Virus record (IMG/VR): IMGVR_UViG_3300032167_002503 | Reading direction: 5' to 3' (one strand) | Length of the DNA stretch: 64,000 nucleotides | Source of the DNA: a virus | In this document: piece by piece, positions 49,085 through 49,427 of the stretch | Layout: each line of letters opens with the position of its first letter | Position numbering within the stretch: position 1 is the first letter of the stretch | Notes under the pieces: model-generated | Seen by the model: the letters and a program-made list of their open reading frames with translations, nothing else | Told to the model about the DNA's origin: nothing | Databases searched by the model: none | Translations under genes and position numbers: made by a program

Positions 49085-49427
49085 TGGTGGAGCCGAGGGG
49101 GGTCGAACCCCTGTCCAAAACACCTACATAACCAGAACATTCTTACACGATAGTTTGCGATTTACTGCATTTTAACTGGCAGAGAGAAGCAAACAATCTC
49201 ATTCAGTTTCAAAGGGGCGTACCGGATTGATACACACTTCCACCACTCTGTTTATTGAAGGGAAACAGAGAAAACCAGGAGATTAGGAAGCAGCGAGCTT
49301 ATGCTCAAGCTGCCAGATGATTCTCGAAATAAGAGTTGTCAGTTAATTGTTTGTTGCGCCTATGGCGGTCGCCTGCCCGTGTATTCTAGCTTCTCAATGC
49401 CCTGTCGAAACCATTACGGCCCCATAT
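49085..49427 (-). ncRNA. ssrA: tmRNA (ssrA)-like RNA, about 343 nt
   Basis: The 5' end GGGGCCGTAATGGTTTCGACAGGG matches the conserved tmRNA 5' GGGGCUGAUUCUGGAUUCGACGGG. The 3' end has a T-arm and CGGCTCC-A-CCA, as in the E. coli tmRNA terminus. The tag ORF is not confidently identified. Confidence 0.55.

What the first reader, a model, noticed from the sequence alone, without database searches (positions are those of the whole stretch)
49085..49427. Phage-encoded tmRNA (ssrA) embedded in the tRNA array
The minus-strand RNA begins GGGGCCGTAATGGTTTCGACAGGG, matching the conserved tmRNA 5' end GGGGCUGAUUCUGGAUUCGACGGG. It ends with a T-arm and CGGCTCC-A-CCA, the tRNA-Ala-like 3' end of tmRNAs. 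The length is about 343 nt. I could not identify a convincing tag ORF. Candidates end in ...KLAAS-TAA or a very short ATNN-TAA, so the tag may be unusual or the RNA may act only in ribosome rescue or as a decoy.
Basis: partly seen in the sequence, partly recalled or inferred. Interest (0 to 1): 0.6.

Follow-up and report, generated by a model that had tools for sequence, protein, structure and literature searches.

The report
Phage-encoded tmRNA with canonical degradation tag
A large gut or rumen-type phage carries, inside its array of 32 tRNA genes, a complete ribosome-rescue RNA (tmRNA) with a normal-looking degradation tag; this is real and evolutionarily conserved but belongs to an already known kind of phage gene.

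Summary
Window 49085..49423 (minus strand, 339 nt) is a full-length one-piece tmRNA. ARAGORN calls it, and Rfam RF00023 scores 95.3 bits (threshold 47, E=7e-36) over the whole model.

Eighteen homologous tmRNAs sit in the same tRNA array in related phage contigs. Across them, frame, 11-codon length, stop codon, D1, Y4, F5 and the C-terminal [L/M/I]-A-A are kept, with synonymous changes.

A 12-sequence alignment supports the acceptor stem (invariant G3·U), T-arm, P2, pseudoknot PK1 and P5. 93.9% of cells pair, against 40-48% when partners are slid. 29 pairs changed on both sides, and 0 of 500 shuffles reach these values. The PK2-PK4 region has recurring hairpins, but its pseudoknots stay unresolved.

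No SmpB gene was found in the window, so host SmpB is presumed. The most likely function is ordinary trans-translation supporting phage translation.

Phage tmRNAs are already known (Bxz1-type mycobacteriophages, phage G, huge phages), so this is a new lineage of a known kind.

Side finding: the endolysin gene has an in-frame TAG, and the phage carries an amber-suppressor tRNA.

The parts
49085..49423 (-). Complete one-piece tmRNA (ssrA) gene, 339 nt, with the CCA end encoded
   Evidence: ARAGORN. Rfam RF00023 95.3 bits, E=7e-36, model 1-374.
49417..49423 (-). Acceptor stem (P1) 5' strand GGGGCCG, containing G3 of the G3·U70 alanine identity pair
   Evidence: Pairs with 49089..49095. G3·U is invariant in 12/12 sequences and 3 of the 4 inner pairs changed on both sides.
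49085..49095 (-). Acceptor stem 3' strand CGGCUCC (49089..49095), discriminator A (49088) and encoded CCA (49085..49087)
   Evidence: Sequence; covariation (helices 1-2).
49096..49112 (-). T-arm: 5-bp stem and 7-nt loop UUCGACC
   Evidence: 100% of cells paired and 2 of 5 pairs changed on both sides (helix 12). Coordinates.
49378..49404 (-). P2 helix, 5' strand (P2a/b/c), linking the tRNA-like domain to the rest of the RNA
   Evidence: Pairs with 49116..49149. 23 pairs, 12 of them changed on both sides, 96-100% paired (helices 3-5).
49116..49149 (-). P2 helix, 3' strand
   Evidence: helices 3-5.
49356..49377 (-). Pseudoknot PK1 (GGCAGGCGACCGCCAUAGGCGC): stem 1 GGY/RCC crossed by stem 2 GCG-CC/GGCGC
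   Evidence: Stem 2 has 3 of 5 pairs changed on both sides (for example C:G / U:A / G:C at alignment columns 60:70). Stem 1 is 97% paired with one-sided changes only (helices 6-7).
49305..49340 (-). Tag reading frame: resume codon GAC (49340..49338), 11 codons DNSYFENHLAA, stop TGA (49307..49305). The first alanine comes from the charged tmRNA, giving (A)DNSYFENHLAA.
   Evidence: ARAGORN. GAC aligns with the resume GCA of the Rfam consensus. Frame, length and stop are conserved with synonymous changes in relatives. U and A lie at -5/-4 before the resume codon.
49290..49313 (-). Helix P5 (GCAGC-UU-GAGC / GCUC-GCUGC), enclosing the last tag codons and the stop codon
   Evidence: 9 pairs, 87% paired, 2 pairs changed on both sides. 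The GCA to GCG change in the codon is compensated by U to C on the opposite strand.
49150..49289 (-). Structured region in the place of PK2-PK4: hairpin A (CUCUGUUU/AAACAGAG), a hairpin closed on the conserved GGUAC motif, and a hairpin CUGC/GCAG with possible crossing stems
   Evidence: Hairpin A has 3 of 7 pairs changed on both sides, and the last hairpin 4 of 4 (helices 9 and 11). The hairpins recur in per-sequence folds. Crossing stems are not established.
49522..49598 (-). Upstream neighbour tRNA-Arg(TCT), probably in the same transcript
   Evidence: There is no promoter-like or terminator-like site on the minus strand between it and the tmRNA. The same neighbour is found in relatives.
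49005..49079 (-). Downstream neighbour tRNA-Phe(GAA), beginning 5 nt after the tmRNA CCA end

Best explanation
This is a functional, phage-encoded, one-piece tmRNA. It is most likely transcribed as part of the polycistronic tRNA array and trimmed by the host tRNA-processing enzymes; a U precedes the mature 5' end, and the CCA end is encoded. It would be charged with alanine by host AlaRS through its G3·U70 pair and bound by SmpB, presumably the host's. It would enter ribosomes stalled on broken or stop-less mRNAs and switch them onto its own short reading frame at GAC. That appends (A)DNSYFENHLAA, terminates at UGA, frees the ribosome, and marks the truncated protein for host proteases that recognise a C-terminal hydrophobic-Ala-Ala.

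For the phage, this adds rescue capacity during infection, when host mRNA is degraded or RNA-targeting defences cleave mRNAs and tRNAs. It fits the adjacent translation-maintenance kit: 32 tRNAs, RNA ligase, phosphoesterases and a nucleotidyltransferase.

Shown here: identity, structure, tag frame, and evolutionary conservation. Inferred: processing, charging, SmpB use, tagging, proteolysis, and the benefit to the phage.
For: - Covariance-model and ARAGORN identification over the full length.
- Eighteen homologues sit at the syntenic place in the tRNA arrays of related phage contigs.
- Structure test on 12 distinct sequences: 93.9% of cells paired against 40-48% with slid partners. 29 pairs changed on both sides against 2-11. 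0/500 shuffles reach the observed values.
- G1-C, G2-C and G3·U are invariant.
- PK1 stem 2 covaries.
- The tag frame is conserved in length, stop codon, D1, Y4, F5 and the [L/M/I]AA end. Synonymous changes occur at F5 (TTC/TTT), A10 (GCA/GCG/GCT) and L9 (CTG/CTT).
- Between the window and the relative L059, the aligned DNA is mostly the tRNAs and the tmRNA, with only two weaker matches (about 69% identity) in neighbouring sequence, as expected under purifying selection.
- There is no promoter or terminator consensus between the upstream tRNA and the tmRNA.
- RNA-repair genes lie in the same window.
- Phage tmRNAs are a documented category (PMC4131195, PMC7162821, PMC12484599).
Against: - No SmpB gene was found in the 64-kb window or in the fetched flanks of relatives. 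Dependence on host SmpB is therefore assumed.
- The PK2-PK4 region could not be folded into convincing pseudoknots.
- The host is unknown, so I could not test whether the tag matches the host's own tag or its protease specificity.
- There are no expression or biochemical data.
- Many related phages with similar tRNA arrays lack the tmRNA, so it is dispensable for the clade as a whole.
Confidence: 0.85

Rival explanations
1. SmpB decoy or inhibitor. The RNA mainly titrates host SmpB or competes with host tmRNA, shutting down or redirecting host trans-translation without productive tagging. This is what was proposed for the TLD-only molecule of mycobacteriophage DS6A.
For: A TLD-only phage tmRNA and the inhibitory effect of such molecules are described in PMC4131195. 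No phage SmpB was found here, so the phage RNA must compete with host tmRNA for host SmpB.
Against: The full mRNA-like domain is present and under coding-type constraint: frame, length, stop codon and C-terminal degron are conserved with synonymous changes. PK1 and P5, which serve resume-codon placement and the reading frame rather than SmpB binding, covary. A pure decoy would not need them.
Confidence: 0.06
2. Code-change helper. The tmRNA is functionally coupled to the phage's amber suppression. It clears ribosomes that pause at in-frame UAG codons in late genes such as the endolysin while the suppressor tRNA is limiting or release factor 1 is impaired, and it destroys the truncated products, sharpening lysis timing.
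For: The endolysin is interrupted by an in-frame TAG, and the PhoH-like gene probably is too. A suppressor tRNA(CTA) is present. All tags in the family stop at TGA, never TAG. tmRNA acts at unassigned UAG codons in recoded E. coli (PMC6207430). Recoding of lysis genes is a known timing device (bioRxiv 10.1101/2021.08.26.457843).
Against: There is no specific association: many relatives have the suppressor tRNA without a tmRNA. Host RF1 would normally terminate at UAG without stalling. No RF1 inhibitor or release-factor gene was seen in the window. The uniform TGA stop may simply be inherited.
Confidence: 0.06
3. Non-functional passenger. The region is a host ssrA copy or attachment-site remnant picked up by the phage and decaying, or the window is bacterial chromosome rather than phage.
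For: Phages and genomic islands often integrate into ssrA and carry parts of it (general knowledge). Two relatives were binned into bacterial MAGs.
Against: The gene is full length, not a 3' fragment. It is conserved with compensatory changes across phages whose neighbouring ATPase is only 41-55% identical at the protein level. No bacterial species representative has a tmRNA with this tag pattern. The two MAG contigs carry the same phage-type tRNA array. The window encodes an endolysin and other phage proteins.
Confidence: 0.03

Closest known systems
Bacterial one-piece tmRNA (SsrA; Rfam RF00023), e.g. E. coli SsrA with tag (A)ANDENYALAA
   Same: Same overall architecture: acceptor stem with G3·U70, discriminator A and CCA; T-arm; no anticodon arm; long P2; PK1 just upstream of the resume codon; U-A at -5/-4; a 10-11-codon tag ending in hydrophobic-Ala-Ala; stop codon inside P5. 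It scores twice the Rfam gathering threshold.
   Different: It is encoded by a phage, inside a tRNA array. The resume codon is GAC (Asp) rather than GCN (Ala). The tag has a conserved D-N-x-Y-F core, a pattern not found in any tmRNA among one genome each of 185,579 bacterial and archaeal species, apart from two phage-like contigs. The PK2-PK4 region is short (140 nt) and aligns poorly to the model (low posterior probabilities). No adjacent smpB.
[quoted passage not shown]
   Same: Full-length tmRNA genes carried by large, tRNA-rich lytic phages (PMC4131195). The phage G tmRNA is 308 bp with tag AKLNITNNELQVA (PMC12484599).
   Different: No detectable nucleotide similarity to any of 50,697 GenBank phage records. 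The tag is different. The phage clade appears to be uncultivated (IMG/VR contigs of about 80-150 kb) and the host is probably different (weak hint of Clostridia from MAG binning).
tmRNAs (and SmpB) of metagenomic 'huge phages' (Al-Shayeb et al. 2020)
   Same: tmRNAs found by ARAGORN in large uncultivated phage genomes alongside many tRNAs and other translation genes. The interpretation there is also ribosome rescue during infection (PMC7162821).
   Different: That survey reported presence only. Here the tag, its conservation and the structure are worked out for one lineage. No SmpB was found within the window.
Mycobacteriophage DS6A TLD-only tmRNA-like RNA
   Same: A phage-borne tRNA-like domain of tmRNA that must interact with host SmpB (PMC4131195).
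   Different: DS6A has little more than the TLD and is proposed to be inhibitory. The present gene has a complete, conserved mRNA-like domain.

Membership tests
tmRNA (RF00023, one-piece) | Covariance-model score above the curated gathering threshold over the full model | tested here: met
   95.3 bits against 47, E=7e-36, model positions 1-374 of 374. ARAGORN agrees.
tmRNA (RF00023, one-piece) | tRNA-Ala-like domain: 7-bp acceptor stem with G3·U70, discriminator A, CCA end, and a T-arm with a 7-nt loop | tested here: met
   GGGGCCG/CGGCUCC-A-CCA. G3·U is invariant in 12/12. The acceptor stem and T-stem covary and are 96-100% paired.
tmRNA (RF00023, one-piece) | Long helix P2 joining the 5' and 3' parts in place of an anticodon arm | tested here: met
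   23 pairs, 12 changed on both sides, 96-100% paired (helices 3-5).
tmRNA (RF00023, one-piece) | Pseudoknot PK1 immediately upstream of the resume codon | tested here: met
   Two crossing stems at 49356..49377. Stem 2 has 3 of 5 pairs changed on both sides; stem 1 is 97% paired (helices 6-7).
tmRNA (RF00023, one-piece) | Internal tag reading frame without a start codon, ending in a hydrophobic-Ala-Ala degron, with the stop codon in helix P5 | tested here: met
   DNSYFENHLAA-TGA. Conserved frame with synonymous changes in 12 distinct homologues. P5 is supported (helix 8).
tmRNA (RF00023, one-piece) | Pseudoknots PK2-PK4 downstream of the tag | tested here: inconclusive
   Three recurring hairpins with covariation (helices 9-11). 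The crossing stems differ in register between subgroups and were not established. From general knowledge, these pseudoknots are variable or reduced in several bacterial lineages.
tmRNA (RF00023, one-piece) | Partner protein SmpB available | tested here: inconclusive
The rest of the phage genome and the host were not available.
tmRNA (RF00023, one-piece) | Alanylation by AlaRS and trans-translation activity | not testable with these tools
   Biochemical property. Only the sequence determinants (G3·U70, A73) could be checked.
Phage-encoded tmRNA | The gene resides on a phage genome rather than on a bacterial chromosome | tested here: met
   PHROG hits to endolysin, PhoH, Sak4, DnaB, primase, topoisomerase II and homing HNH endonucleases. 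51 related loci lie on IMG/VR viral contigs. No capsid or terminase gene lies within this 64-kb window, so phage identity rests on these genes and on the relatives.

The most novel reading that the evidence does not exclude
This clade-specific tmRNA, with a tag (A)D-N-x-Y-F-x-x-x-[L/M/I]-A-A matching no bacterial species representative under the pattern searched, may be a phage-controlled quality-control device rather than a spare copy of the host function. On this reading it is coupled to the phage's amber-suppression programme. It would clear ribosomes stalling at in-frame UAG codons of late or lysis genes, or on host mRNAs cut during takeover. It would mark those products with a phage-specific degron, helping to set lysis timing and recycle ribosomes and amino acids.
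Probability: 0.1. Interest if true: 0.6.

Novelty: new member of a known kind. Interest (0 to 1): 0.33.

Why it matters
Phage-encoded tmRNAs have been catalogued, but the papers consulted here report only their presence, and I know of no functional study. This lineage offers a clean comparative data set: 12 distinct sequences, a conserved and recognisable tag, and a defined genomic context next to tRNA-repair genes and a suppressor-tRNA-dependent endolysin. The specific tag sequence could be searched for directly in gut or rumen metaproteomes. A hit would be the first direct evidence that a phage tmRNA tags proteins during infection, and it would show which proteins are tagged. In itself the finding does not change what is known: it confirms that large phages import ribosome-rescue functions.

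Tried and rejected
1. Exact-match scans of IMG/VR with the 5' and 3' ends of the tmRNA found nothing. Relatives were reached through the neighbouring AAA+ ATPase instead. The CYTH-like neighbour gave only one weak locus.
2. blastn against 50,697 GenBank phages found no homologous tmRNA. Megablast of 20 kb of the window hit only individual tRNAs.
3. A scan of one genome per bacterial or archaeal species for the tag pattern was meant to find a host or donor ssrA. It returned 28 hits, about the chance expectation I had estimated. Only two were tmRNAs, and both are phage contigs binned into Clostridia MAGs. The host's own tag therefore remains unknown.
4. A naive all-against-all column-pair helix scan was too noisy because of G·U pairs.
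5. Two-layer folding to expose pseudoknots in the PK2-PK4 region did not settle them. Unrestricted folding gave none. With a span limit, crossing helices were weak and inconsistent. Hand-derived candidates (GGAGG with the hairpin-A loop; AACUG/CAGUU with CUGC/GCAG) compete with alternative pairings of the invariant GUGGUGG motif. I do not claim them.
6. A global test for stop-codon recoding by ORF coverage was uninformative. The targeted search for same-frame ORF pairs split by a single TAG succeeded.
7. The suppressor tRNA could not be assigned to an amino acid by similarity to the phage's Ser, Leu, Tyr or Gln tRNAs.
8. Considered and rejected: attachment-site fragment, bacterial chromosome, and two-piece or permuted tmRNA. 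The model match is contiguous and full length.

Full report
**1. The observation**

The minus strand of window 49085..49423 begins GGGGCCGTAATGGTTTCGACAGGG.

ARAGORN reports a tmRNA at exactly these coordinates with tag peptide DNSYFENHLAA. The Rfam tmRNA model RF00023 matches positions 1-374 of 374 with 95.3 bits, against a gathering score of 47 (E=7e-36). The feature is therefore real and far beyond chance.

The gene is 339 nt.

It sits in an array of 32 tRNA genes, all on the minus strand. tRNA-Arg(TCT) lies 98 nt upstream and tRNA-Phe(GAA) starts 5 nt after the CCA end.

**2. What the window is**

The larger ORFs, nearly all on the minus strand, match phage protein families:
- DnaB helicase, primase, ATP-dependent DNA ligase and both topoisomerase II subunits.
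- Sak4-like annealing protein, endolysin, PhoH, NAD synthetase, RNA ligase, phosphoesterases and a nucleotidyltransferase.
- HNH homing endonucleases between the tRNAs.

No GenBank phage is similar at the DNA level beyond single tRNAs. The AAA+ ATPase next to the tmRNA (47154..48275) retrieves 51 loci on IMG/VR viral contigs, mostly 80-400 kb, with similar tRNA arrays. I conclude the window comes from a large uncultivated phage.

**3.

- In the Rfam alignment the consensus resume codon GCA aligns with GAC at gene position 84, which is window 49340..49338.
- From there the frame reads GAC AAC TCT TAT TTC GAG AAT CAT CTG GCA GCT TGA. That is DNSYFENHLAA plus a stop at 49307..49305.
- With the alanine carried by the charged tmRNA, the appended peptide would be (A)DNSYFENHLAA. 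This is a standard tag design with a hydrophobic-Ala-Ala C-terminus.
- The bases at -5/-4 are U-A, as in E. coli (U85, A86; comparison from general knowledge).

**4. Relatives**

ARAGORN found tmRNAs at the syntenic position in nine related loci. BLAST and end-finding added seven more that ARAGORN missed.

A scan of one genome per bacterial or archaeal species with the back-translated tag pattern gave 28 hits, about the number I had estimated for chance. Only two of these were tmRNAs. Both lie on contigs of about 148 kb that carry the same phage-type tRNA array and had been binned into Clostridia MAGs (Oscillospiraceae and a Eubacterium sp.).

The same pattern in IMG/VR hit 13 contigs, all already known relatives.

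The lineage is therefore confined to one phage clade. No bacterial chromosomal ssrA with this tag pattern was found. The MAG binning is only a weak hint of a Clostridia host.

**5. Constraint on the tag**

Across 12 distinct sequences the following are invariant:
- the 11-codon length (10 in L013);
- the TGA stop;
- D1, Y4 and F5;
- the terminal Ala-Ala.

Position 9 is always L, M or I.

Synonymous variation occurs at F5 (TTC/TTT), A10 (GCA/GCG/GCT) and L9 (CTG/CTT). The GCA to GCG change is matched by U to C on the opposite strand of P5 (pair 119:141). This is the pattern of a translated frame that also lies within a helix.

A more distant relative (L034) has a different tag, ARYQYQMAA, also ending at TGA.

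**6. Structure**

RNAalifold on 13 sequences recovered the acceptor stem, P2, the T-arm, P5 and internal hairpins. 29 of its 58 pairs showed compensatory changes.

I then wrote out a structure of 69 pairs, including pseudoknot PK1, and counted it on a 12-sequence alignment.

| Measure | Observed | Partners slid by 1-3 columns | Shuffles reaching the observed value |
|---|---|---|---|
| Cells forming a standard pair | 93.9% | 40-48% | 0/500 |
| Pairs changed on both sides | 29 | 2-11 | 0/500 |

- G1-C, G2-C and G3·U are invariant.
- PK1 stem 2 has three of five pairs with changes on both sides.

The 140 nt between P5 and the 3' strand of P2 contain three recurring hairpins with covariation. The crossing stems that would make them PK2-PK4 could not be fixed, because registers differ between subgroups and the invariant GUGGUGG motif has several possible partners. 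I leave that part open.

**7. Expression and partners (inference)**

No sigma-70-like promoter or intrinsic terminator lies on the minus strand between the upstream tRNA-Arg and the tmRNA. Promoter-like sites lie further upstream, and others lie just downstream of tRNA-Phe.

A T precedes the mature 5' end here and in the seven relatives whose flanks were read. The CCA end is encoded. Co-transcription with the tRNAs and processing by the host tRNA enzymes is the simplest reading.

No SmpB-like ORF was found in the window or in the flanks of relatives. Host SmpB is therefore presumed.

**8. Mechanism and rivals**

The best-supported explanation is ordinary trans-translation carried out by a phage-supplied tmRNA. 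It adds ribosome-rescue capacity during infection.

This fits the surrounding translation-maintenance genes: a near-complete tRNA set, RNA ligase, phosphoesterases and a nucleotidyltransferase.

The rivals fare as follows:
- A pure SmpB-decoy role, as suggested for the TLD-only RNA of phage DS6A (PMC4131195), does not explain the conserved tag frame, PK1 and P5.
- A captured host fragment or attachment-site remnant is excluded by full length, conservation with compensatory change, and the absence of any bacterial counterpart.
- A more interesting possibility is a link with amber suppression (section 9). It is not excluded, but many relatives have the suppressor tRNA without a tmRNA.

**9. Side finding bearing on context**

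The endolysin gene is a single frame (19412..18078, minus strand) broken by one TAG at 19112..19110. The upstream 100 codons match endolysin family phrog_20388 at profile positions 7-99 (E=1.8e-36). The downstream ORF matches positions 107-361 (E=1.9e-71).

The PhoH-like gene shows the same arrangement, more weakly.

Together with the tRNA carrying anticodon CTA at 39157..39247, this indicates suppressor-dependent expression of a lysis gene. That is a known phenomenon in gut phages (bioRxiv 10.1101/2021.08.26.457843).

tmRNA is known to act at unassigned UAG codons in a recoded E. coli (PMC6207430). That is why I list the code-change link as the most novel reading, at low probability.

**10. 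Comparison with what is known, and verdict**

tmRNA genes have been reported in eight Bxz1-type mycobacteriophages and in Bacillus phage G (PMC4131195; PMC12484599). They have also been reported in metagenomic huge phages, together with SmpB (PMC7162821).

The present gene meets every sequence- and structure-based criterion of the family that could be tested, except the unresolved PK2-PK4. It has no detectable nucleotide similarity to any GenBank phage record.

It is a new lineage of a known kind.

Interest is moderate to low. Its value lies in a well-defined, searchable tag and a good comparative data set for a class of phage genes for which the papers consulted here report no functional work.

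Noticed in passing
window 18078..19412 (-), TAG at 19112..19110; also 19456..20724 (-), TAG at 20394..20392: The endolysin gene is one reading frame interrupted by a single in-frame TAG. The upstream 100 codons hit endolysin phrog_20388 at profile 7-99 (E=1.8e-36) and the downstream ORF hits profile 107-361 (E=1.9e-71). The PhoH-like gene shows the same split more weakly (E=6.7e-5 for the upstream part). This implies amber suppression or TAG recoding of at least a lysis gene.
   Followed up: partly
window 39157..39247 (-): A 91-nt tRNA with anticodon CTA (ARAGORN labels it 'Pyl') and a long variable arm directly abuts tRNA-Ser(TGA) at 39248..39340. It is presumably the amber suppressor. Its amino-acid identity could not be assigned by similarity to the phage's other tRNAs. 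Most related loci also carry a CTA tRNA.
   Followed up: partly
window 33200..35602 (-) and 35978..37483 (-); 33173..37603 (+): An 800-aa protein has Major Vault Protein shoulder and repeat domains (PF11978, 9e-20; PF17795). Next to it is a 501-aa DUF2828/DUF7788 protein (phrog_850 'RNA-binding protein', 2.7e-116). Both lie just beside the tRNA array. A 1476-aa ORF runs antisense across both genes on the plus strand and is probably a shadow ORF, but it is unusually long.
   Followed up: no
window 27107..28390 (-), 29848..30657 (-), 30654..31493 (-), 24101..24823 (-): A candidate RNA-repair kit: RNA ligase (phrog_968, 3.5e-47), metallophosphoesterase, nucleotidyltransferase (possibly CCA-adding) and a NinI-like phosphatase. 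They lie 10-20 kb from the tRNA/tmRNA array.
   Followed up: no
window 45562..45674 (-) and 50267..50359 (-): Two Rfam tRNA matches not called by ARAGORN: one of 113 nt (46.1 bits, possibly intron-containing) and one of 93 nt (36.6 bits).
   Followed up: no
window 48461..48943 (-): A 160-aa ORF immediately downstream of tmRNA and tRNA-Phe begins MSMEIERKWLL, which looks like a CYTH/triphosphate-tunnel ExExK motif. It has no Pfam hit and matches only phrog_6660, of unknown function (1e-22).
   Followed up: partly
window 21410..22933 (-): A 507-aa SPFH/Band 7 plus flotillin-domain protein in a phage genome (PF01145, 1.9e-18; PF15975).
   Followed up: no
window 51222..51764 (-), 45765..46172 (-): HNH or homing-endonuclease-like and zinc-ribbon ORFs are interspersed among the tRNA genes (phrog_15471, 7.8e-11). 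This suggests mobile endonucleases shape the array.
   Followed up: no
L019-L032, L046 (e.g. L022 9902..9975; L021 4352..4426): Related phages carry tRNA-like genes that ARAGORN reads with four-base anticodons (taaa, tgtt, taga) next to tRNA-Met. They may be frameshift-suppressor-like or mis-called tRNAs.
   Followed up: no
L023 5458..5798, L026, L030, L041, L062: In one subgroup the tmRNA T-arm reads GGAGUGCGACUCUCC, with a G in place of the usual second U of the UUCGA T-loop and one extra stem pair. This probably explains why ARAGORN missed these genes.
   Followed up: partly
L008 and L013 (both from IMGVR_UViG_3300028591_000087, 193 kb): The same contig carries two copies of the ATPase and tRNA array, near its two ends, including a tmRNA 3' end at the contig edge (L008 40..108). 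This suggests a terminal repeat or a concatemer assembly.
   Followed up: no
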